A stretch of 64,000 bases of DNA from Naegleria gruberi (taxonomy: Eukaryota): the NCBI GenBank assembly GCA_000004985.1, contig GG738864.1; one strand, 5' to 3'. Below are positions 15,553 through 59,313 of the stretch, piece by piece (position 1 is the stretch's first letter; every line of letters begins with the position of its first letter). A program made the translations under genes and the position numbers. The notes beneath the pieces are model-generated. The model was given only the letters and a program-made list of their open reading frames with translations. It was not told the DNA's origin and did no database searches.

Positions 15553-18456
15553 ATGGTGGGCAATCTTCTCAGTTTTTCTACTTCTAACTGGAAAGTAGAA
15601 AAAATGGCATCACACCAAGCAGAGGAAATTTATTCATGTGCTAATAATCATGATCGGAATGATGTGATGATGAGTAGTAGTAATAGTGTTGTTATTAATG
15701 ATCGTCGCGGAATTTTCAAGTCAATTCCTAAAGAAGTTATTTTACAAATTTTCTGTTACTTGTATAAACCAGAAGAGTTTCAAGGCTTTGCGTTGACTTG
15801 TAAATTATGTTATGAAGTGTACGCTGAGGAAATGTCAATGAGTTTGGATGGAATTAGATTGGATTATTTGAATGGTGTGGATCGAAGTGGAAAACCTAAT
15901 CGATTGATTGAATTATTTTCTATGAATGATGGAATGTCGGCTGACAAGTTGGCCATTGATTATGATAGTTACTTTAGAAAGAAGGGGGAATTTTATGAAC
16001 AGTATTTAGTGGATGAGATTCCAAAGTGCACTAACAAAAAGCTTGATAATGAGGATGACATAGTGGATGAAGAGGAATACCTGGAAGAAATGCAAACATG
16101 TATTCCATACCAGGGCGAATCGTCTAATGATTCTGATGAAGAAGAGAGTGAGGAAAGGAAAAAGGTATTCAAATTTCCATTTGTAAATACTTTAGAAAAA
16201 TTCAAAGAGAGATTGAATGAAATTCTGAAAAACAATGCTATGGCTAAAAAGGTAACGGAATGTCTGAATCATTTTAACAATACTACAAAGACCAATGTTA
16301 GATTCATTATTGCAGGTGGATTTGTTACACATCTGGTATCTAATTGTGGTTGTTGTGATATTGATATTTTCACAATTTCTAATGGGTCTAGTGACGAAAT
16401 TATCGATCATTCACTGAAACAAGTATTAACTCATATTGCTATGGAGCTTCGAAAGGAAAAGGTAGATTATAATATATTAAAGACTAATGGCACATTGAAT
16501 CTATTACCAATTACCAATGGAATTAAATCCAATCTGTGTCACAGATATCCAGATGCTGGTCCTATGGATGAAGATGAACTCCCTTGCCAGTTCGTATTGA
16601 GAAGAGTACAATCAATTGAAGAATTAATGTGCTTCTTTGATATTGATTGTTGTAGATTTTGTTACGATTTTGAGAGTGTGTACACCATATTGGAAGGGCT
16701 TAGATCCATGAAATTTAAACTCAATTTTGTTGCCAGACGTCATATTCACACTGGTCTCTATGTAAATAGAGCCATCAAATATAGTAGAAGAGGATTGGAT
16801 ACACTGTGTGTTGATTTGCACCCATTTGAACACAGACTCCATGCACAAACATTCATGACATGGCTCAGAGAATTTTTAAGCTCACATTTCACGGGAATGG
16901 CTGATGAGGGAGACTATGATGATCCATACTTTAATGACGAATCTTGGAATGGTTTTAACACAATAGCTCCATACATGTATATTGACAAGTATGCTGGAGA
17001 TTCTGACTTTGACGAAGAGCCTTACTATTCTATCGTATTGAAAAGTTTGGATTATTGGCTTGTGAAATGTGTTTTGGATAATGGATTGCGTGATGCAATG
17101 TATTCATTCGAGGCAAATGGTGATTACAGGGATGGAAGATGGACGAATGCATTAAAGGATATCACGATAGTGCATAACGTAGAGAAAAATCCTGTTATCG
17201 AGTCAATCATTGAGCACATTGAAAAATATGATATTCACTACTTTTGTCATACCATTGAAGAGTTACTCATCAAACATCCATCCATGTACATTACTGAAGG
17301 TTATTTGGATAGCCATCTCAAAAGCAAGTATGGATTCGATAGGTGCTACTTGTGCAATCAATACAAGATGGACGGCTTTAAATCCATGTGTCACAAATGT
17401 AAATATTGGAATATTGGAATGGAAAAGATGCATAGAGATCTTTCTGGAAAAGTTGCAATCGTTACAGGAGGAAGATGTAAAATAGGTTATGAAACTAGTT
17501 TGCTATTATTGAGAATGAAAGCAACTGTAGTGGTCACAACAAGATTTGGCTTTAATGCACTCTCGAAATTCCAGAAAGAAAGCGACTATAAGGAATGGAA
17601 AGATAATTTGATTATTTACCCTCTGAATTTGAAACATGGACCATCAGTTGTGGAATTTACAACATTTATCAAATCAAAATTCAAGCATGTGGACTTTTTA
17701 GTGAATAATGCAGCTCAAACAGTAAGAAGGCCAGTACCATATTTCACACCTTTGGTTGCAATTGAAAAAAGCCACTCACAATCTTTATATTTGCCATTAG
17801 GATTGGAAGAGAATAGCAGTGAATCCAACACAACACTAGCAGTCAAGGATCTCACCAAACAATTGGTGAATAATGCTCTCAATAGTACTCTTGAAGCTCT
17901 CACTCCGGAGGATTCTACCTATGAATTTAGAAAGGAATTGGATAAGTTTGGTGAATTAATTGATCATCGAACTAGACATACTTGGAATATGGCTCTAAAT
18001 GAAACAAGCACTGCTGAAATAATTGAATGTCAAATGGTGAATAGTATTGCTCCAACACTTTTAGTTTCCAAATTGACTGATTTGCTGAGACCTCAATTGA
18101 GTGATGAGGAATTACTGTCCATTGATTTTGAAAATAACTCACCATATTCGTATGTGGTTAATGTAACTTCACATGAGGGCTCTTTCAATACTACAGGAAA
18201 AACAGATTTCCACATTCAAACCAATCTTTCTAAGGCATCACTCAACATGTTGACGCATTCAGCCGCTAATCAACTTGCCAAACAAGGAATATTGATGAAT
18301 TCGGTGGATGTTGGTTGGATTTCTTCATCTATTCCAACATTTAAAGATCCACCTTTAAAATGTATTGATGGTGCTTACAGAATTTTACATCCAATCCTCA
18401 CCAATTCCACCAGTTATGGTAAATTATTCAAAGACTATAAAGTTGTTGAGTGGTAG
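15553..18456 (+). CDS. Multi-domain protein: an N-terminal F-box-like motif, a central Pol-beta-type nucleotidyltransferase-like motif, and a C-terminal short-chain dehydrogenase/reductase (SDR) Rossmann domain.
   Basis: Uninterrupted 967-aa ORF with ATGs at 15553 and about 15604. The F-box-like motif is IPKEVILQIFCYLYKPEEF. The NTase-like signature is RFIIAGGFVTHLVSNCGCCDIDIF (hGG-x12-DhDh), with a further acidic motif FFDIDCC. The SDR signatures are LSGKVAIVTGGRCKIGYETSLLL (TGxxxxIG) and LVNNAAQ. The canonical YxxxK Tyr is not obvious (..QTNLSKASL..). Confidence 0.65.
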   Translation: MVGNLLSFSTSNWKVEKMASHQAEEIYSCANNHDRNDVMMSSSNSVVINDRRGIFKSIPKEVILQIFCYLYKPEEFQGFALTCKLCYEVYAEEMSMSLDGIRLDYLNGVDRSGKPNRLIELFSMNDGMSADKLAIDYDSYFRKKGEFYEQYLVDEIPKCTNKKLDNEDDIVDEEEYLEEMQTCIPYQGESSNDSDEEESEERKKVFKFPFVNTLEKFKERLNEILKNNAMAKKVTECLNHFNNTTKTNVRFIIAGGFVTHLVSNCGCCDIDIFTISNGSSDEIIDHSLKQVLTHIAMELRKEKVDYNILKTNGTLNLLPITNGIKSNLCHRYPDAGPMDEDELPCQFVLRRVQSIEELMCFFDIDCCRFCYDFESVYTILEGLRSMKFKLNFVARRHIHTGLYVNRAIKYSRRGLDTLCVDLHPFEHRLHAQTFMTWLREFLSSHFTGMADEGDYDDPYFNDESWNGFNTIAPYMYIDKYAGDSDFDEEPYYSIVLKSLDYWLVKCVLDNGLRDAMYSFEANGDYRDGRWTNALKDITIVHNVEKNPVIESIIEHIEKYDIHYFCHTIEELLIKHPSMYITEGYLDSHLKSKYGFDRCYLCNQYKMDGFKSMCHKCKYWNIGMEKMHRDLSGKVAIVTGGRCKIGYETSLLLLRMKATVVVTTRFGFNALSKFQKESDYKEWKDNLIIYPLNLKHGPSVVEFTTFIKSKFKHVDFLVNNAAQTVRRPVPYFTPLVAIEKSHSQSLYLPLGLEENSSESNTTLAVKDLTKQLVNNALNSTLEALTPEDSTYEFRKELDKFGELIDHRTRHTWNMALNETSTAEIIECQMVNSIAPTLLVSKLTDLLRPQLSDEELLSIDFENNSPYSYVVNVTSHEGSFNTTGKTDFHIQTNLSKASLNMLTHSAANQLAKQGILMNSVDVGWISSSIPTFKDPPLKCIDGAYRILHPILTNSTSYGKLFKDYKVVEW

Positions 18457-18495: not shown

Positions 18496-20816
18496 TTATT
18501 GCACTAAACATTTCTTTTGTGGACGAACTTTACTACAATAATTGTCATCTCTGGTGACGGCAATTGTTCTCAAAATGACACTACTCAAATCATCAATGCC
18601 ATATCCTGTTTTGGAGCTAGTTTCAATATAAGTGGCACAACCCATCTTTTTGGCCATCAACTCTCCTTGTTCGAATGTGATTGGTTTTTCTTCATATTTA
18701 AGAATGAACTCCTTATTAAGAATTGAATCAGTACGATAGTCAATCTTGGTATTCACTAATGCCACAGGAGTGTCAGGACAGTGGTGTCTGATTTCTGGAA
18801 GCCATTTGGTGACAACATTGAAAAATGAAGCCTCTGACACACAACTAAAGTTCACTAAGAACAAAGATGTCCCTGGGTAGGACTATTACAATATTATTAC
18901 AAAAAATATAATTTCAATACTTACCAATGGACGCAATCTAAATAATATTAAGAAAACAAAAATAAAAATGATTAATTACCTATCATAATCTAAAATTGAT
19001 TAATTTCAATTAAATCCATTCAAAAAAAACTTACCTTCAGGACCAGCAGTATCCCTTTGTAAATGTTAACAATTATTAAAGAGATAGCTCAAATAACTTA
19101 CCATAGACCGATTGAATAAGTCTTGTCTTCAACTTTTACACTGATATTGTGATTGTCAAACACAGTTGGAATATAATCATTTGGATAATCTCCAGAAGTA
19201 TACCGTATTAATAGTGTTGTTTTACCAACTGCTCCATCTCCTACCGCAACAACCTTAAAAACACCATAAGGAGGATACTTGTCTAACATTTCAACCACAT
19301 GAGAATAGTTTAAAAGTTCAGACTTGGAACAATACTGTCTACCATCTGTACGTTGTTTTACCTCCTCAATTTTCAATGTTCTTTCAATATTCTTCTTTTC
19401 AACTTTTGACATGATGGCTTGAACAGCTTGAATGAGATTTTCCTTGTAATTTGACTTTTTACGTAAATAGGAATCGAAAATTCTTGATTGAGTGGTATCA
19501 AAAACATATTTACGAAGCACATAATCATAGGAACCAACAGTTTGCTTTGATGCCTTCTTAAAATCACTCAATTTTTTGAAATAAAAATCTTCCCAATATT
19601 GATCTTCAGTTGTTAAAGTGCAAATTCTCAATGATTTGGAAACCAAATGTAATTTCATTAAATCTTGAATGCTAAGAAATGATAGAACTGTTCTGAAAAT
19701 GTCATCATTCACCTTCTCATTAAATAAGTCAATATTAAATGAGCTTGTTTCTGATTTGATTATTGATTTTCCATCTTTCTTACTTGAAGTAATAGACGTA
19801 GTTGTTGGTGGAGAAACTGTAAAAACGTCAGGAGTCTTTTGAAATAATCCTCCAACTACAAAATAAGTAATAGAGGAATCAGTGGAAGGAATTTGCACAA
19901 GAGCATGAAGTACAGGTTGAGCTTCTTCCTTATTAGAATCATTGAAAATGGATGAAAGAGAATGAGTTGTATCAATCTTCCAACCTTGGCTAACATTTCC
20001 CAAATCAAGACATGTACAATCTGTGAAATTTTGATTTTGATTACAACCACCAACACTATACAATGTGTTTCCTTCCAAAACCATTGAATGTCCATATCTA
20101 GCAAACTGTTCACTCAAATTTGATGCAATAATCTCAGCATTAACTACCAATCTGTCAACACTCTCTACCAATGAATCAAGTGAAATCTTAATTGTATCTC
20201 TAATAATGGAATTAGCTGTTTTACCTCCATGAATATACCACTCTCCTGTTTCCTGATTCAAAACAGATGCATGATGATATCTCTTTGCAATTTGTTGTGA
20301 ATTTGATTCAATTTCCACAACTTTCCATTCAAATGTAGTCAAATTCAATTTGAATAATTCATTGGATGCAAAGCTATTATTATCATAACCACCAAACACA
20401 AATAATTGATCCTTAAAAACCACAGCTGATTGACCATAACGAGGAGAAATCAAATCTGATCCACTAGTCTGTAACTGTGTCCATAAATTATGTTCAAATT
20501 GATACAACCAAACATCTTTATGAAAACCATTCGATTTACCACCAAATAAAATCATTTCGTCTCGATTTCTCAAATAGGCAGAGTGACAATTTCTTGCACA
20601 TGGAATTAATTGTTGTTCTTGTTGATCAATTGATGTTAAATTCCTCCACAATTGTGTTGTAACATTAATTTCAATTAGATCATTACAATAAATGAGTGGT
20701 CTTGCTGAGGAAATGTCTGGATTTTTAATATAACCTCCGAATAGATAGATTTTATTGTTGTCTCTGTAAACACCGCTGTGACCAATACGAAGTGGTAGTG
20801 TGGAGAGTAATGACAT
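18496..20816 (-). CDS. Kelch-repeat beta-propeller, an F-box-like motif, and a C-terminal Rac/Rho-family small GTPase domain in one polypeptide. Five exons including three micro-exons.
   Basis: complement(join(18496..18882, 18925..18937, 18980..18989, 19035..19054, 19102..20816)). ATG at 20816 (aaaaaATG). The Kelch motifs are KIYLFGGY, MILFGGKS, QLFVFGGYDN, EWYIHGGK and TLYSVGGCN. The F-box-like motif is IFRTVLSFLSIQDLMKLHLVSKSL. The GTPase G1 motif is KVVAVGDGAVGKTTLLIRYT..IPTVFDN..YSIGLW. The micro-exons spliced with GTAAGT/GTAATT donors restore W|DTAGPE|DYD|RLRPL|SYP...LFLVNFSCVSEASFFNVVTKWLPEIRHHCPDTPVALVNTKIDYR. Introns are 42-47 nt. Confidence 0.8.
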
Positions 20817-21001
20817 TTTTTTTAAAGTTGTTTTGCAAAGTCATGAATCAAAAGTTCAGTGTTCCCTTGATGTAAAATGGAAAGAATCCAAAAATGTTTT
20901 TTAAACCATTTACTTTGAAAATTGGGCTAGCAGTTTGGTTAAATATTTGAAATGGATAAGTCTACAGCATTGAAATTAATGTTAATAACATATGATAAAA
21001 A

Positions 21002-21119
21002 GACTACAGCACCACAGGTTCCCAAGTTGTCTCCAACCTCAGTACTGATGTGGCTCGACGATGCTTAACTTCTCAAATCGGACGGGATGAGGTGCATTCA
21101 TCGTGATATGGCCGTAGCC
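21002..21119 (-). rRNA. 5S ribosomal RNA gene, copy 1 of 3.
   Basis: The minus strand reads GGCTACGGCCATATCACGATGAATGCACCTCATCCCGTCCGATTTGAGAAGTTAAGCATCGTCGAGCCACATCAGTACTGAGGTTGGAGACAACTTGGGAACCTGTGGTGCTGTAGTC followed by TTTTT. It is 118 nt with the 5S consensus blocks (CGGCCATA, CCCGTCCGAT, AAGTTAAGC, AGTACT, GGGAA, GGTGCTGTAG). The 5'/3' ends can pair as helix I, and an oligo-T Pol III terminator follows. Confidence 0.85.
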
Positions 21120-21341: not shown

Positions 21342-23474
21342 ATGACAGGCAAAGAACAAAATACTCACCAGATTCTCCCCAAAGCTTCCTCTAACGCTCT
21401 ACAAACAGTACAATCAGAACAATATGATTATCTTGAGGACCAAAATGTCGATGAGTTAATTTGTTCAATTTGTTTGTTTCCGTTTGTTGATCCAATTTCA
21501 CATAGTACATGTGGAAATACCTTCTGTTCAACATGTGTGGAAAAGGTTGTGAATTGTCCAATGTGTGGTGAAGATGAATTCAAGAAGAATTGTTCACCAA
21601 GTGCAAAGGTGGTCATAAACATGTTGGATAAATTGAAAGTTAGGTGTGGAATGTGCAAGACAATTGTCCCAAGAGGCGAACTGAAAGACCATCAAGACAA
21701 ATATTGTCCACTCCATGGAGCCTATCAACAAGTTGAAGAATTAAAGAAGAAGTTGGAAGCAGAACACCTTGAAAAGCTTGAGATTGCTCAAAAAGAACTT
21801 GAAGAAAAGATGAAAAGTTTGCAAGTAGATCATGAACAATATTTGCAAAAAGCACAAGAGAATTTGACAAGGAGAGAAGAGGAATTACTCCAACAAGCAA
21901 AGAAAAAAGAAGAATTGTTGGAAAACCAAATGAAGGAACTTAAAAATCAAGTTGTGGCCAGAGAGAAATTTGAATCAACCAACAAACCTATCCATTTAAA
22001 TGTTGGTGGAACTATTCTTACTGTTTCATTGGGAGCTTTTATTCACAATGAAAGAGAACCTGATAATTTATTCAAGAAAATGTTCACTGGCGAGTATCCA
22101 TTGTATCAAACTCCATCAAAGAAATTCAATGATCCTATTTATTTCATTGATTGTGATCCAGTTATTTTCAAACTCATTCTTGATTGGTTGAAATTTGGTA
22201 TCATTGGAAATGAATTGAGTGATGACATGAAACAATCACTTTTATGTTCTTGCAATTCGTTCGGTATTGAAAATATAACCAAACATTTAAAGGAGAAACA
22301 CAAACAAGTAGCCAAGATGTCACAATTTGACTTTATGAATGTTGTCAATCTTGCAAGAAGTCAAAAAAGCAAACTAAATTTGAGTGGCCTTGATTTAAGA
22401 AAATTAGTGTTAAACAGTACGGATTTGAAGAATGCAGAAATTCTTGGATCTGACTTCAGTGGAATGAATTTGAAAAACACTGATTTCAAAGGAGGAATCT
22501 TGATAGGATGCAATTTCAGTAATTGCACTTTAACAAGTGTAAGAATTCAAGATTGTAATTTGGAAGGATGTGACTTTTCAAATACTATCTTTAAAAATAC
22601 TGACATTTTGAAAAACAATTTGTCAGGTGCCAATTTTGAAAATGCTCAATTTGAAAAGTGCAAAATTCAATGGCATTTTAAAAAGGGAAGAGATAATAAT
22701 TTGAAATATTGTAAATTTGTTGATTGTAATTTCGACGGATCAATATTTGAAGAAATTGATTTTTTTGAATCTATTTTATCATCAAGTAATATATTTAATA
22801 CTGGAACAATCAAGAATGCAGATTTAAGACAATGGAAAGATTTATCCAAATTCAAAGAAATGAAATTTGATTCATGTGTGTTTAATTTTACTGAAGAAAC
22901 AACAAAGGATATCATAGTTCCATTTGAATGTGATATTATTGACTTTGAAACCTCTTTGGCATTATATTCACATACTGAAAGTAAAGCAATTCCTCAATTA
23001 CTATATAAGGGAACAAGAGATGGATTTAATGGTTATTCCTTTCATCCTAAATGTGATAATCGCGGCCCAACATTAACAATTATCAAATCAGAACATGACC
23101 AAATATTTGGTGGATTTACCTCTAAACCTTGGACATCAAACAGATCACCACAGACCTATGTTTCAGATGAATCTGCATTTATTTTCAAAATTGAAAAAGA
23201 TTCAACAAATCAAAATTATCAATTTAGAAAATTCAATATCAAACAAGATAAGAAACAATATGCTATTAACGTTTTTGAAGGTTTTTTGCCAAAGTTTGGG
23301 GAAGACATTTATATTTGCAATGATTGTGATTCTCAAAATCAATCATATTCAGGATTAGGCTATGCTTATGAATCACCAAACAACTTTTCGAGCAATGAGA
23401 CACAAAGCTATTTGGCAGGAAGTTCCCCTTTCAAAGTTAAAGAAATAGAAGTTTTTCTTATTAAAAATTATTAA
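21342..23474 (+). CDS. RING finger, TRAF-type zinc finger, coiled coil, BTB/POZ (KCTD-like), pentapeptide repeats and a C-terminal TLDc domain.
   Basis: ATG at 21342 (aaaaaaaataATG). The RING is CSICLFPFVDPISHSTCGNTFCSTCV..CPMC. The TRAF-zf-like part is KVRCGMCKTIVPRGELKDHQDKYCP. The coiled coil has KK..EE repeats. The BTB part is IHLNVGGTILTVSLGAF...FIDCDPVIFKLILDWLKFG. The pentapeptide repeats are NLSGLDLRKLVLNSTDLKNAEILGSDFSGMNLKNTDFKGGILIGCNFSNC... The TLDc part is LLYKGTRDGFNGYSFHPKCDNRGPTLTIIKSEHDQIFGGFTSKPW. Confidence 0.8.
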   Translation: MTGKEQNTHQILPKASSNALQTVQSEQYDYLEDQNVDELICSICLFPFVDPISHSTCGNTFCSTCVEKVVNCPMCGEDEFKKNCSPSAKVVINMLDKLKVRCGMCKTIVPRGELKDHQDKYCPLHGAYQQVEELKKKLEAEHLEKLEIAQKELEEKMKSLQVDHEQYLQKAQENLTRREEELLQQAKKKEELLENQMKELKNQVVAREKFESTNKPIHLNVGGTILTVSLGAFIHNEREPDNLFKKMFTGEYPLYQTPSKKFNDPIYFIDCDPVIFKLILDWLKFGIIGNELSDDMKQSLLCSCNSFGIENITKHLKEKHKQVAKMSQFDFMNVVNLARSQKSKLNLSGLDLRKLVLNSTDLKNAEILGSDFSGMNLKNTDFKGGILIGCNFSNCTLTSVRIQDCNLEGCDFSNTIFKNTDILKNNLSGANFENAQFEKCKIQWHFKKGRDNNLKYCKFVDCNFDGSIFEEIDFFESILSSSNIFNTGTIKNADLRQWKDLSKFKEMKFDSCVFNFTEETTKDIIVPFECDIIDFETSLALYSHTESKAIPQLLYKGTRDGFNGYSFHPKCDNRGPTLTIIKSEHDQIFGGFTSKPWTSNRSPQTYVSDESAFIFKIEKDSTNQNYQFRKFNIKQDKKQYAINVFEGFLPKFGEDIYICNDCDSQNQSYSGLGYAYESPNNFSSNETQSYLAGSSPFKVKEIEVFLIKNY

Positions 23475-36246: not shown

Positions 36247-36469
36247 ATAAAATTCCATCTAGGATCTGCATTTTGTACAAGGTTAAATTCAGATTAATTC
36301 TCAAAGGTATCAAAAACTGCGCTCAAATATTCAATTATTTGTTTAGCTATTTGGAAATGCTGTTATTACTGTTGGCAATGTATCTTAAACTCAAATTGAA
36401 TTTTACCATTAGTATCTTACATTATTACTCTATTACTGCAGTTTAGCAAATGGAATTCTCAAATAAAAA

Positions 36470-36587
36470 GACTACAGCACCACAGGTTCCCAAGTTGTCT
36501 CCAACCTCAGTACTGATGTGGCTCGACGATGCTTAACTTCTCAAATCGGACGGGATGAGGTGCACGAATCGTGATATGGCCGTAGCC
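36470..36587 (-). rRNA. 5S ribosomal RNA gene, copy 2 of 3.
   Basis: Same 118-nt sequence as copy 1 except a 3-nt change (..GATTCGTGCACC..). An oligo-T terminator follows (+ strand aaaaa at 36465-36469). It shares about 45 bp of 5'-flank with copy 1 (attcattacc(t/a)caaattgtcaaatataaatct(t/c)ttattgttt). Confidence 0.85.
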
Positions 36588-47430: not shown

Positions 47431-48094
47431 GGGTTTCGTTTTGTTTTTTTTGATGTTTAGAATAGAATGGACGGGATTGGCAGTCTTGTGAAGTGGCTGT
47501 TGTGGAGACCTTATTGTAAAGTGAAGAGTCAAAATATTTTCCCTAAACGAAAAATAATACCTTAAATGGGAAGTTAATGGATGAATAGTAGGACCAAACT
47601 TTGCTTCATTTTCAATTCATCTTCCTTCTCCTGCTGTGTATTTTGGATAAATTGTAATTCAGGTGTGATGACCGAATAGTTCTGCATCAATTTCCAATAA
47701 TTACTCGACAAGCAAGCCTTTGATCCAATTTAAATTCTTTTGTAGTACTCTTGATGAGGGAATAACTTTTTCTTTGATCTTGCTCCTTGAGGACCTTCAT
47801 TGCAAAATTCTTTTCTAATTCTTGTTGGTGTTATCAAAACCATTAAATTGTTCTTCATCAATTTGTTTCCGAAAAATATTCATACCATTTCAATGAGACA
47901 CTTAGTTGTTGGGGTATTTAAAGTTTATATTACTGATGATGGTATCCAATCCAACGATCACACCACTATTAAGATGTTTCATGGCTTGTCCTCAATCCAG
48001 CATTTTTTTTGTAAATTTTGAACTCGAAACTTAAAACAATTTCAATGAAATAGTAAGGAGTTAAGGACAATAAAGGAGTAAAGGACAATAAAAA

Positions 48095-48212
48095 GACTAC
48101 AGCACCACAGGTTCCCAAGTTGTCTCCAACCTCAGTACTGATGTGGCTCGACGATGCTTAACTACTCAAATCGGGCGGGATGAGGTGCATTCATCGTGAT
48201 ATGGCCGTAGCC
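48095..48212 (-). rRNA. 5S ribosomal RNA gene, copy 3 of 3.
   Basis: 118 nt, identical to copy 1 except two substitutions (..GATTTGAGTAGTT.. / CCCGCCCGAT). An oligo-T terminator follows (+ aaaaa 48090-48094). Its 5'-flank diverges from copies 1-2 after about 9 nt. Confidence 0.85.
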
Positions 48213-59239: not shown

Positions 59240-59245
59240 GGGGTT

Positions 59246-59276
<31 letters not shown>

Positions 59277-59312
59277 TGCAGAAGGTCTAGGGTTCGATTC
59301 CCTATGACTCCA
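59240..59312 (+). tRNA. tRNA-Ala (anticodon UGC).
   Basis: GGGGTTATAGCTCAGTTGGTAGAGCGTCTGCTTTGCATGCAGAAGGTCTAGGGTTCGATTCCCTATGACTCCA, 73 nt, cloverleaf-compatible. The acceptor stem is GGGGTTA/TGACTCC with the G3:U70 wobble that is the alanine identity element. The anticodon loop is CTTTGCATG (TGC). The T-arm is GGTTCGATTCC. Discriminator A. No CCA is encoded. Confidence 0.9.
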
Positions 59313-59313
59313 C

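What the first reader, a model, noticed from the sequence alone, without database searches (positions are those of the whole stretch)
18496..20816. Kelch beta-propeller / F-box / Rac-type GTPase fusion
After splicing, the conceptual protein (about 714 aa) carries 5-6 Kelch blades and an F-box-like helix (IFRTVLSFLSIQDLMKLHLVSKSL). It ends in a complete Rho/Rac-family GTPase with G1 GDGAVGKT, switch II DTAGPEDYDRLRPLSYP, and NTKIDYR (the NKxD box). Atypical Rho proteins with BTB domains (RhoBTB) are known. A Kelch + F-box + Rac arrangement would instead suggest a GTPase built into an SCF-type substrate adaptor. I do not recognise it as a described class.
Basis: partly seen in the sequence, partly recalled or inferred. 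Interest (0 to 1): 0.6.

Follow-up and report, generated by a model that had tools for sequence, protein, structure and literature searches.

The report
Kelch–F-box–Rac fusion gene, already catalogued
This is a real, conserved Naegleria gruberi gene that joins a Kelch propeller, an F-box and a Rac-like GTPase lacking its catalytic glutamine in one protein, probably a membrane-tethered ubiquitin-ligase adaptor, but a 2021 Naegleria genome paper already lists this gene and this architecture.

Summary
On the minus strand, five exons (20816-19102, 19054-19035, 18989-18980, 18937-18925, 18882-18496) joined by four GT..AG introns of 42-47 nt give a 714-aa protein. It has a six-bladed Kelch propeller, a divergent but real F-box, a conserved linker and a complete Rac-type G domain ending in a CaaX box (CLVQ).

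The fusion does not depend on splicing. Exon 1 alone holds Kelch, F-box, P-loop and switch I.

The window is Naegleria gruberi NEG-M. The reference annotation shows only a 203-aa "rho family small GTPase" (XP_002677955.1) that starts at an internal Met and skips the 10-nt microexon.

The architecture recurs in Naegleria, Willaertia, Acrasis, Balamuthia, Stenamoeba, Pelomyxa and Physarum (permuted in some), including an intronless ORF and transcripts. Family signatures are loss of the catalytic Gln61 (Pro here) and a CaaQ farnesylation-type tail. The Kelch is closest to LZTR1.

The claim of novelty fails. Herman et al. 2021 (PMC8296547, Table S8 and supplementary text) list this corrected protein and describe F-box/Kelch plus Rho fusions in Naegleria. 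Function remains untested. The most likely role is a membrane-anchored SCF substrate receptor.

The parts
18496..20816 (-). Whole coding region of the Kelch-F-box-Rac gene: five exons, 714 codons plus TAA at 18496-18498
   Evidence: An in-frame TGA lies 9 codons upstream of the ATG at 20816.
19102..20816 (-). Exon 1 (1715 nt): Kelch, F-box, linker, and G1/switch I/beta1-3 of the GTPase
   Evidence: tblastn is 100% over aa 1-572.
19055..19101 (-). Intron 1, 47 nt, GTAAGT..AAG, phase 2 in Trp572
   Evidence: A 1-nt insertion in the second strain L001 lies here.
19035..19054 (-). Microexon 2 (20 nt), encoding (W)DTAGPE(D)
   Evidence: Identical in L001.
18990..19034 (-). Intron 2, 45 nt, GTAAGT..TAG
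   Evidence: A 2-nt deletion in L001 lies here.
18980..18989 (-). Microexon 3 (10 nt), encoding (D)YD(R). It is skipped in the reference model XP_002677955.1.
18938..18979 (-). Intron 3, 42 nt, GTAATT..TAG
18925..18937 (-). Microexon 4 (13 nt), encoding (R)LRPL
   Evidence: The single difference from L001 is a synonymous TTG>TTA change.
18883..18924 (-). Intron 4, 42 nt, GTAAGT..TAG, phase 0
18496..18882 (-). Exon 5 (387 nt): rest of the G domain, hypervariable tail, CaaX, stop
19827..20798 (-). Six-bladed Kelch beta-propeller, aa 7-330
   Evidence: Pfam PF24681 E 2e-44 and PF24981 E 1.5e-33. Closest solved sequence is LZTR1 Kelch, E 1.3e-25. Closest fold is LZTR1 Kelch in complexes with MRAS/RIT1/KRAS, E 5.6e-18 (on the N. 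lovaniensis orthologue model).
19548..19730 (-). Divergent F-box, aa 363-423. VN replaces the usual LP, and Leu replaces the usual Trp in 'SKSLRI'.
19263..19547 (-). Conserved linker, aa 424-518: long helix, beta-hairpin, long helix in the models. No known fold was matched.
   Evidence: Alignment. AlphaFold pLDDT 81-86 for this stretch. Foldseek found nothing.
18541..19262 (-). Rac-type G domain, aa 519-700, interrupted by the four introns
   Evidence: Pfam Ras E 2.6e-40. Best PDB match is human Rac1, E 5e-58, aligned end to end including the Rho insert.
19218..19241 (-). P-loop GDGAVGKT, aa 526-533, in exon 1
19039..19041 (-). CCT codon for Pro577, at the position of the catalytic Gln61 of Rac1
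   Evidence: Alignment to Rac1.
18499..18510 (-). CaaX box CLVQ, aa 711-714, preceded by basic KVRPQKK
19287..19289 (-). Internal ATG (Met510) used as the start of the 203-aa reference model XP_002677955.1

Best explanation
What is shown. One Naegleria gruberi gene (minus strand, 20816 to 18496, five exons including microexons of 20, 10 and 13 nt) encodes a 714-aa member of a conserved Kelch-F-box-Rho family. Its parts are an LZTR1-like six-bladed Kelch propeller, a divergent F-box, a family-specific structured linker, and a Rac-type G domain. The G domain has intact nucleotide-binding motifs and a Rho insert, but Pro replaces the catalytic Gln61. The protein ends in a polybasic stretch and a CaaX box (CLVQ).

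What is inferred.
- The F-box docks the protein onto Skp1-Cul1, so the protein is an SCF substrate receptor.
- The Kelch propeller is the substrate-binding face.
- The Rac module hydrolyses GTP poorly, so it is mostly GTP-bound or not run by a GAP-driven cycle.
- The Rac module is farnesylated (X=Q) and, with the basic tail, tethers the ligase to a membrane. It may also gate the receptor.

Overall this would be a Cul1-based counterpart of RhoBTB. My confidence that it is one gene with this architecture is about 0.95. My confidence in the membrane-tethered SCF-receptor mechanism is about 0.5.
For: Gene model.
- The ORF and canonical GT..AG introns restore DTAGPEDYDRLRPLSYP exactly as in the N. 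lovaniensis and N. fowleri orthologues.
- In a second strain (L001, 98% identical), indels of 1 and 2 nt fall only in introns, and the only exon indel is 3 nt.
- The same splicing in L001 gives an intact ORF with dN/dS 0.28.

Fusion.
- Exon 1 alone joins Kelch, F-box and the P-loop.
- Local HMMs on the proteins collected here found 27 Kelch-F-box-Rho, 8 Rho-Kelch-F-box and 8 F-box-Rho proteins.
- One of them is an intronless 757-aa ORF.
- Stenamoeba and Physarum members are transcripts, and Balamuthia and Pelomyxa members are gene models. All have Pfam F-box scores above cutoff.

F-box. The family profile hits only F-box proteins in the PDB.

G domain.
- The best match is Rac1, E 5e-58, with Gln61 replaced by Pro.
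- Gln61 is lost in 17 of 19 complete Kelch-F-box-Rho G domains, against 2 of 35 stand-alone Rho hits.

Tail. CaaX ends in Q in 20 of 27 fusion proteins that have a CaaX. In stand-alone Rho it ends in L in 15 of 24.

Kelch. The nearest solved relatives are all cullin-RING substrate receptors: LZTR1, KLHDC3/10/2 and FBXO42.

Literature.
- The same reading, GTPase-dependent ubiquitination, was proposed for Naegleria F-box-GTPase fusions (PMC8296547).
- RhoBTB precedent is in PMC4931677.

Background knowledge (mine).
- X = Q, S, M or A in CaaX favours farnesyltransferase.
- Gln61 is needed for intrinsic and GAP-stimulated hydrolysis.
Against: - No transcript data for N. gruberi itself were available, so the microexon model rests on homology, splice signals and one strain comparison.
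- In the Naegleria clade the F-box lacks the usual Leu-Pro (VN or LN instead) and the usual Trp (Leu instead). The full-length Pfam score is below cutoff. Skp1 binding is untested.
- The domain order (Kelch before the F-box, GTPase after it) differs from classical F-box-Kelch proteins. It is therefore unclear which domain faces the E2.
- Pro at position 61 has not been characterised in Rho proteins, as far as I could check.
- AlphaFold models were only moderately confident (pLDDT 66 and 72) and say nothing reliable about contacts between domains.
Confidence: 0.6

Rival explanations
1. Two genes, as the reference annotation implies: a stand-alone 203-aa small Rho GTPase (XP_002677955.1) starting at Met510, and an unannotated or non-coding upstream ORF with Kelch and F-box.
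For: The only N. gruberi protein on record at this locus is the 203-aa model P0178, which starts at the ATG at 19289.
Against: - There is no stop codon between the F-box and the P-loop. The ORF is open for 509 codons upstream of that Met.
- The F-box, linker and G-domain spacing is conserved across the aligned homologues.
- Two complete proteins from other organisms show the same order: P0009, an intronless ORF from a metagenome contig, and P0043, a Stenamoeba transcript.
- The reference model also deletes the conserved DYDR of switch II by skipping the 10-nt exon.
- Herman et al. corrected the model to the long form.
Confidence: 0.03
2. A scaffold that does not work through SCF. The F-box is a degenerate relic that no longer binds Skp1. 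The protein would then work as an atypical, membrane-bound Rac-like protein whose Kelch propeller binds cytoskeletal or other partners, with no ubiquitin-ligase role.
For: - The Naegleria clade replaces the Leu-Pro and Trp positions of the F-box.
- The full-length Pfam F-box score is below cutoff.
- The F-box part of the AlphaFold model has low confidence (pLDDT 51-66), and the fold search gave nothing.
- Many Kelch proteins bind actin (background knowledge).
Against: - The F-box segment is among the best-conserved parts of the family.
- The profile hits exclusively F-box proteins.
- Amoebozoan members and P0009 keep canonical LPxE...W F-boxes with Pfam scores far above cutoff.
- The nearest Kelch relatives are all cullin-RING ligase (CRL) substrate receptors.
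Confidence: 0.2
3. A built-in GTPase client, by 'Rosetta stone' logic. The LZTR1-like Kelch propeller binds a small GTPase, either its own Rac module in cis (autoinhibition or a pseudo-substrate, as proposed for RhoBTB) or other Rho/Ras proteins in trans as ubiquitination substrates. The Rac module would then be a regulatory partner of the propeller rather than mainly a membrane anchor. This overlaps with the best explanation and is not exclusive of it.
For: - LZTR1 Kelch is the top match by sequence (E 1.3e-25).
- It is also the top match by fold. Those entries are LZTR1 Kelch bound to MRAS, RIT1 or KRAS in the GDP state (9mez, 9mey, 9mf0).
- LZTR1 is the CUL3 adaptor for RAS-family GTPases (PMC8185703, PMC8154269, PMC11420953).
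- After the family itself, the best Kelch matches include amoebal Kelch-BTB proteins.
- Copromyxa and Rhizamoeba encode Rho fused to Kelch and BTB.
- The RhoBTB autoinhibition model is described in PMC4931677.
Against: - The margin of LZTR1 over KLHDC2/3 and FBXO42 is modest.
- The RAS-contacting residues of LZTR1 were not examined.
- No reliable prediction of contacts between domains was obtained.
Confidence: 0.25
4. A decaying paralogue or pseudogene in a very large, fast-turning-over Rho family. The odd microexons and loss of Gln61 would be signs of decay.
For: N. gruberi has more than 80 Rho genes, and birth-and-death evolution is reported for some GTPase groups (PMC8296547).
Against: - The ORF is intact in two strains, with dN/dS 0.28.
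- All nucleotide-binding motifs are intact.
- Pro61 and CaaQ are conserved across genera rather than being private lesions.
Confidence: 0.03

Closest known systems
Naegleria F-box/Kelch-GTPase fusions catalogued by Herman et al. 2021 (BMC Biol 19:142, Additional files 4 and 10)
   Same: It is the same protein. The corrected sequence beginning MSLLSTLPLRIGH... is listed as a N. gruberi 'Rac'. Paralogues are labelled 'Kelch, F-box'. The authors give the same functional suggestion, GTPase-dependent ubiquitination.
   Different: - The table row for this protein prints 'BTB' as the extra domain and the ID XP_002672362.1, not XP_002677955.1. Pfam finds no BTB.
- In the text I could read, the paper does not mention the Gln61 loss, the CaaQ signature, the microexons or the amoebozoan relatives.
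RhoBTB (atypical Rho fused to tandem BTB domains; Cul3 adaptor)
   Same: A Rho-family G domain is covalently joined to a cullin-RING adaptor module. The G domain is atypical and is thought not to be run by ordinary GEF/GAP cycles. RhoBTB3 also carries a CaaX (PMC4931677).
   Different: - The adaptor module is an F-box (Cul1/Skp1), not BTB (Cul3).
- The G domain is C-terminal here and N-terminal in RhoBTB.
- A Kelch propeller is present.
- Naegleria also has genuine RhoBTB genes.
LZTR1 (Kelch-BTB-BACK; CUL3 adaptor for RAS, MRAS and RIT1)
   Same: It is the closest solved Kelch propeller by sequence and by fold. It is also a CRL substrate receptor that deals with small GTPases.
   Different: LZTR1 has BTB-BACK domains, no F-box and no G domain. 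The GTPase is a separate substrate there, not a fused domain.
F-box/Kelch proteins (human FBXO42, plant FBK family)
   Same: An F-box plus a Kelch propeller in one SCF substrate receptor. FBXO42 is among the best sequence and fold matches.
   Different: The order there is F-box then Kelch (background knowledge). Here it is Kelch then F-box, with a GTPase in the position C-terminal to the F-box.
FBXL2 (F-box protein with a C-terminal CaaX box; geranylgeranylated; background knowledge)
   Same: An SCF receptor tethered to membranes by C-terminal prenylation.
   Different: FBXL2 uses LRRs and a bare CaaX tail (CVIL, GGTase type). Here the CaaX belongs to a whole Rac-like domain and is of the farnesyl type (X=Q).
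GTPase-deficient atypical Rho proteins (Rnd1-3, RhoH; background knowledge)
   Same: Residues needed for hydrolysis are substituted, with predicted constitutive GTP binding. Rnd proteins are farnesylated.
   Different: Those are stand-alone small proteins. The substitution here is Gln61 to Pro, with Gly12 retained.

Membership tests
Rho family small GTPase (Rac-type) | P-loop G1 GxxxxGK[ST] | tested here: met
   GDGAVGKT at aa 526-533, identical to Rac1.
Rho family small GTPase (Rac-type) | Switch I Thr35, G3 DxxG, G4 [NT]KxD, G5 SA[KL]-like | tested here: met
   YIPTVFDN, DTAG, TKID and ETSSKT all align to the Rac1 motifs.
Rho family small GTPase (Rac-type) | Rho insert helix between G4 and G5 | tested here: met
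   The alignment to Rac1 runs through residues 121-137 with a single one-residue gap.
Rho family small GTPase (Rac-type) | Trp56, the Rac-specific determinant (background knowledge), and best match to Rac rather than Cdc42/Rho | tested here: met
   GLWDTAG is present. Rac1/2/3 score E about 5e-58 and Cdc42 about 6e-54. The NJ tree is too weak to place it within Rac.
Rho family small GTPase (Rac-type) | Catalytic Gln61 | tested here: not met
   Pro577 aligns with Gln61. Gln is lost in 17 of 19 family members. It is therefore an atypical Rho.
Rho family small GTPase (Rac-type) | C-terminal CaaX prenylation box | tested here: met
   CLVQ preceded by KVRPQKK. Actual prenylation cannot be tested here.
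F-box protein / SCF substrate receptor | F-box sequence motif (about 40-50 aa, three helices) | tested here: met
   The family profile hits only F-box proteins in the PDB, best E 5e-8. The isolated segment scores 23.2 bits against a cutoff of 20.5 for PF00646. The three short helices in the model have low pLDDT.
F-box protein / SCF substrate receptor | Conserved Leu-Pro at the start and Trp near the end of the F-box | tested here: not met
   VN replaces LP, and Leu replaces Trp in 'SKSLRI'. The trailing W of 'DQYW' is kept. Canonical residues are present in P0009 and in the amoebozoan members.
F-box protein / SCF substrate receptor | Binding to Skp1 and assembly with Cul1-Rbx1 | not testable with these tools
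   No complex prediction or experiment is available here.
Kelch beta-propeller | Five to seven Kelch repeats with GG doublet and Trp spacing | tested here: met
   Pfam PF24681 E 2e-44, with Kelch_1/3/4 in three to four stretches each. Six blades appear in the alignment and the model. Fold matches to Kelch domains have TM about 0.7 normalised to the target.
RhoBTB | Tandem BTB domains C-terminal to an N-terminal Rho domain | tested here: not met
   No BTB hit at E<=1 in Pfam. The G domain is C-terminal.
LZTR1 / BTB-Kelch Cul3 adaptors | BTB-BACK domains following the Kelch propeller | tested here: not met
   No BTB or BACK hit. Only the Kelch propeller resembles LZTR1.
Kelch-F-box-Rho family of amoeboid protists (as catalogued for Naegleria by Herman et al. 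2021) | Domain order Kelch, F-box, conserved linker, Rho, with full-length alignment to other members | tested here: met
   Identity is 44% over 99% of the length to N. lovaniensis and 42% to N. fowleri. The alignment is collinear. Local HMMs give kelch-fbox-rho.

The most novel reading that the evidence does not exclude
The gene belongs to an old, uncharacterised family shared by Heterolobosea and Amoebozoa. The family either dates back to an early eukaryotic ancestor or was exchanged between amoebae. In it, a hydrolysis-dead (Pro61), farnesylated Rac module is welded to an LZTR1-like Kelch propeller and an F-box. That would make it a Cul1-based analogue of both RhoBTB and LZTR1. The GTPase would be a built-in membrane anchor and/or a built-in client of the propeller, giving spatially restricted ubiquitination at membranes of amoeboid cells. 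The published catalogue does not state the Pro61 and CaaQ signatures, the amoebozoan relatives (including the permuted Rho-Kelch-F-box form) or the LZTR1 link, as far as I could read it.
Probability: 0.35. Interest if true: 0.55.

Novelty: already known. Interest (0 to 1): 0.3.

Why it matters
As a discovery it adds little, because the gene and its architecture are already in a published catalogue of Naegleria GTPases. It still has practical value in three ways.

1. The RefSeq/UniProt entry for this locus (XP_002677955.1 / D2VDD3, 203 aa) is truncated. It also lacks a 10-nt microexon that encodes part of switch II. The five-exon model should replace it.

2. The family-wide loss of Gln61, the CaaQ tail and the LZTR1-like propeller give concrete, testable hypotheses for a class of GTPase-E3 fusions that nobody has studied experimentally.

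3. The same three domains occur in Balamuthia, Pelomyxa, Stenamoeba and Physarum, and in the brain-eating amoeba N. fowleri. Any function found would therefore bear on membrane and cytoskeleton regulation in amoeboid cells generally.

Tried and rejected
I used a family alignment instead.
- AlphaFold of the full-length N. lovaniensis orthologue gave only pLDDT 66 and pTM 0.48, so I drew no conclusions about contacts between domains.
- AlphaFold of the window's F-box plus linker (aa 355-520) gave pLDDT 72 overall, but 51-66 in the F-box. Foldseek against the PDB found nothing (best E = 1). The fold-level test of the F-box and any identification of the linker therefore failed.
- A neighbour-joining tree of 90 Rho domains with 200 bootstraps was unresolved. 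Support was 0.44 for the Naegleria orthologue group and 0.06 or less deeper. It cannot say whether the heterolobosean and amoebozoan fusions share one origin.
- A Kelch-only HMM ranking put amoebozoan fusion proteins among the best matches outside the family, but interleaved with Kelch-BTB proteins, so it is not decisive either.
- Loci for P0007 and P0178 were not on record.
- Literature searches for Kelch/F-box/Rho in Amoebozoa and for Naegleria microexons found nothing relevant.
- No synteny was seen between this locus and the N. lovaniensis or N. fowleri loci.
- There is no second copy in the window.
- I rejected separate genes, a pseudogene, and RhoBTB or LZTR1 membership, for the reasons given under the rival explanations and the membership test.
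Full report
**1. What is in the sequence**

The window is AT-rich (about 34% G+C) and eukaryotic. The neighbouring ORF 21342-23471(+) is, residue for residue, Naegleria gruberi NEG-M protein XP_002677869.1 / EFC45125.1. The window is therefore N. gruberi nuclear DNA.

On the minus strand an ORF runs from the ATG at 20816 to a TAA at 19098-19100. An in-frame TGA lies nine codons upstream of that ATG. The ORF ends ...KTYSIGLW.

Taking GT at 19101 as a donor and joining four further segments gives a 2145-nt reading frame of 714 codons plus TAA. The exons are:
- 20816-19102 (1715 nt)
- 19054-19035 (20 nt)
- 18989-18980 (10 nt)
- 18937-18925 (13 nt)
- 18882-18496 (387 nt)

The four introns are 47, 45, 42 and 42 nt. 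All are GT..AG, and three start GTAAGT.

**2. Is the gene model right?**

Several independent lines say yes.

- The three microexons restore WDTAGPEDYDRLRPLSYP. This string is identical in the N. lovaniensis and N. fowleri orthologues and matches Rac1 at every position except one.
- A metagenomic contig from a second N. gruberi-like strain (L001, about 98% identical) has the same structure.
  - Its only indels that are not multiples of three (+1 and -2 nt) lie in introns 1 and 2.
  - The one exon indel is 3 nt.
  - The one change in a microexon is synonymous.
  - Spliced the same way, L001 gives an intact ORF ending ...KKCLVQ, with 15 synonymous and 16 non-synonymous differences. That is dN/dS 0.28.
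- Short introns are normal in the relatives. They measure 50-57 nt in N. fowleri and 46-57 nt in Willaertia. An annotated Willaertia paralogue also has a 10-nt microexon in the same switch II region.

What is missing is transcript evidence from N. gruberi itself.

**3. State of the reference annotation**

The only N. gruberi protein on record at this locus is P0178, which is XP_002677955.1 / EFC45211.1 / D2VDD3. It is a 203-aa "rho family small GTPase".

- It starts at an internal Met (ATG at 19289).
- It uses a weak alternative donor 4 nt downstream of the GTAAGT of intron 2.
- It skips the 10-nt microexon.
- As a result it reads PEGKLRPL instead of PEDYDRLRPL.

It therefore misses the Kelch and F-box parts and damages switch II.

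**4. The fusion does not depend on splicing**

Exon 1 alone encodes the Kelch propeller, the F-box, the linker, the P-loop GDGAVGKT, switch I and strands beta1-beta3. That already excludes the "two genes" reading.

Independent support:
- The same domain order is one uninterrupted 757-codon ORF on a metagenomic contig (L004 8001-10274).
- It is present in Trinity transcripts of Stenamoeba stenopodia.

**5. Domains**

*Kelch (aa 7-330).* Pfam gives PF24681 E 2e-44 and PF24981 E 1.5e-33. There are six blades.
- The closest solved relatives by sequence are LZTR1 (E 1.3e-25), KLHDC3, KLHDC10, KLHDC2 and FBXO42.
- By fold, using the orthologue's model, the top five hits are LZTR1 Kelch bound to MRAS, RIT1 or KRAS. 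FBXO42, KLHDC3 and KLHDC2 are among the next hits.
- All of these named relatives are substrate receptors of cullin-RING ligases.

*F-box (aa 363-423).* It is weak in the full protein (E 5e-3 to 7e-3, below cutoff). A profile of ten family segments matches only F-box proteins among all PDB chains: FBXO3 at E 5e-8, then FBXL5, beta-TrCP, FBXW7, SKP2 and others. Every family segment matches the Pfam F-box models.
- The Naegleria clade has VN or LN where most F-boxes have LP, and Leu where most have Trp.
- P0009 and the amoebozoan members keep the canonical residues.

*Linker (aa 424-518).* It is conserved within Heterolobosea and modelled with pLDDT 81-86 as helix, hairpin, helix. It has no detectable structural relative.

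*G domain (aa 519-700).* Pfam Ras scores E 2.6e-40. The best PDB match is human Rac1 (E 5e-58), aligned end to end including the Rho insert.
- G1, Thr35, DTAG, TKID and the G5 motif are intact, and Trp56 is present.
- The catalytic Gln61 is replaced by Pro.

*Tail.* The protein ends KVRPQKKCLVQ, a polybasic stretch plus a canonical CaaX box with X = Q.

**6. The family**

A profile search of 1.84 billion representative proteins was combined with local HMMs. Among the proteins collected there were 27 with the order Kelch-F-box-Rho, 8 with Rho-Kelch-F-box and 8 with F-box-Rho.

Named sources:
- Heterolobosea: N. gruberi (at least one paralogue, XP_002676274.1), N. lovaniensis (two), N. fowleri, Willaertia magna (two on one contig) and Acrasis kona.
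- Amoebozoa: Balamuthia mandrillaris (two), Stenamoeba, Pelomyxa schiedti (both orders) and Physarum polycephalum (permuted order).

For the five amoebozoan members I checked with Pfam, all hits are above cutoff.

Two signatures mark the fusion proteins.
- Gln61 is lost in 17 of 19 complete Kelch-F-box-Rho G domains (Pro 10, Gly 5, Ser 1, gap 1). Among stand-alone Rho hits it is lost in 2 of 35.
- The CaaX box ends in Q in 20 of 27 fusion proteins that have one. Stand-alone Rho hits end mostly in L, 15 of 24.

Balamuthia P0051, Willaertia P0034 and Physarum P0010 share the exact DTAGPEDYDRLRP(L) string with the window protein.

Whether the heterolobosean and amoebozoan proteins share one origin is not settled. 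The G-domain tree is unresolved. The Kelch ranking places them near each other but interleaved with Kelch-BTB proteins.

**7. How it most likely works**

*Shown:* a conserved, selectively maintained protein with a CRL-receptor-type propeller, an F-box, and a nucleotide-binding-competent Rac domain that lacks the catalytic Gln and carries a farnesyl-type CaaX box and a basic tail.

*Inferred:*
- The F-box recruits Skp1-Cul1-Rbx1.
- The propeller presents substrates.
- The Rac module hydrolyses GTP poorly. This follows from the established role of Gln61 in intrinsic and GAP-stimulated hydrolysis.
- The Rac module is farnesylated. This follows from the established preference of farnesyltransferase for X = Q, S, M or A.
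- Together with the basic tail, it places the ligase on a membrane.

RhoBTB is a precedent for a GTPase that gates a CRL adaptor. There, the G domain is proposed to hold the first BTB domain in an autoinhibited state (PMC4931677).

LZTR1 is a precedent for a Kelch propeller that handles small GTPases. Its propeller recruits RAS-family GTPases to CUL3 (PMC8185703, PMC8154269, PMC11420953). By domain-fusion logic the propeller here may bind a GTPase, its own or another. I treat that as a lead, not a result.

The unusual order, with the propeller before the F-box and the GTPase after it, leaves open which domain faces the E2.

**8. Comparison with what is known, and novelty**

Herman et al. 2021 (BMC Biol 19:142, PMC8296547) analysed the Ras superfamily of N. 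fowleri and N. gruberi with manual correction of gene models.

- Additional file 10 (Table S8, sheet N. gruberi) lists under "Rac" a corrected protein beginning MSLLSTLPLRIGHSGVYRDNNKIYLFGG... This is identical to the present model over the roughly 400 residues kept in the stored text.
- Sister entries are labelled "Kelch, F-box", "Kelch, BTB, F-box", "Kelch" (XP_002676274.1, my P0007) and "F-box".
- Additional file 4 makes three relevant points.
  - Kelch motifs also occur.

Two oddities remain:
- The row prints ID XP_002672362.1*, not XP_002677955.1.
- It prints "BTB" as the extra domain, although Pfam finds no BTB. This is probably a BTB-Kelch label from the conserved-domain database.

Not found in what I could read of that paper: the Gln61 loss, the CaaQ signature, the microexons, the LZTR1 affinity and the amoebozoan relatives. 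These are modest additions to a known catalogue entry, and nothing about function has been tested by anyone.

**9. Verdict**

- Observation: confirmed.
- Interpretation: right about the architecture and the plausible SCF link, wrong about novelty.
- Rating: already known, low to moderate interest. The main concrete outcomes are a corrected gene model for a mis-annotated RefSeq entry and a set of testable family signatures.

Noticed in passing
window 21001-21119 (-), 36469-36587 (-), 48094-48212 (-): Three dispersed 5S rRNA genes, all on the minus strand (Rfam 98-105 bits). The first lies 184 nt upstream of the fusion gene's ATG, in the same orientation. Two copies share a roughly 35-nt upstream block, and all end in a T run. 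They are solo copies, not a tandem array.
   Followed up: partly
window 19030 / 18980-18989, versus reference protein XP_002677955.1: The RefSeq/UniProt model for this locus (203 aa, D2VDD3) starts at an internal Met and skips the 10-nt microexon through a weak alternative GT donor. This replaces the conserved DYDR of switch II with GK. It looks like an annotation error rather than an isoform, but only RNA data can tell.
   Followed up: yes
window 18883-19101; L002 7706-8052; L003 7664-7918; L006 4282-4951: The switch II coding region is an intron hot spot in this family, and no positions are shared. N. gruberi has four introns within 17 codons. N. lovaniensis and N. fowleri have one, in the second Arg of DRLR. 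Willaertia has two, flanking a 10-nt microexon. The intron after GKT that N. lovaniensis (both paralogues) and N. fowleri share is absent in N. gruberi.
   Followed up: partly
window 21342-23474 (+): The divergent neighbour XP_002677869.1 combines a Cys-rich N-terminus, BTB_2 (aa 217-286), pentapeptide repeats (aa 339-437) and a TLDc domain (aa 532-707). This is another unusual multidomain protein with a cullin-adaptor-type domain.
   Followed up: partly
window 15553-18456 (+): A convergent 967-aa ORF with a short-chain dehydrogenase C-terminal half (adh_short, E 3e-14) and an uncharacterised N-terminal 600 aa. Its stop is only 39 nt from the stop of the fusion gene, so the 3' UTRs must overlap or be very short. 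The exact ORF product is not in the protein collection.
   Followed up: no
window 59240-59313 (+): tRNA-Ala (TGC), 72 bits in Rfam, also found by ARAGORN.
   Followed up: no
proteins P0090 (Copromyxa protea) and P0097 (Rhizamoeba saxonica), transcripts: These amoebozoan transcripts encode a Rho domain fused to Kelch and BTB domains. That is a RhoBTB- or LZTR1-like combination in which the GTPase, the propeller and a Cul3-type adaptor sit in one chain. It parallels the F-box version studied here.
   Followed up: partly
L006 (Willaertia magna contig JBEGDK010000101.1): Two Kelch-F-box-Rho paralogues (ABK040_012226 and ABK040_012229) lie on the same 141-kb contig, three locus tags apart. This suggests local duplication.
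   Followed up: no
PMC8296547, Additional file 10 (Table S8), N. gruberi sheet: The row holding this protein's corrected sequence prints ID XP_002672362.1* and extra domain 'BTB'. The reference model at the locus is XP_002677955.1, which does not occur in the stored table, and Pfam finds no BTB. This is possibly a row or ID slip, or a BTB-Kelch label.
   Followed up: partly
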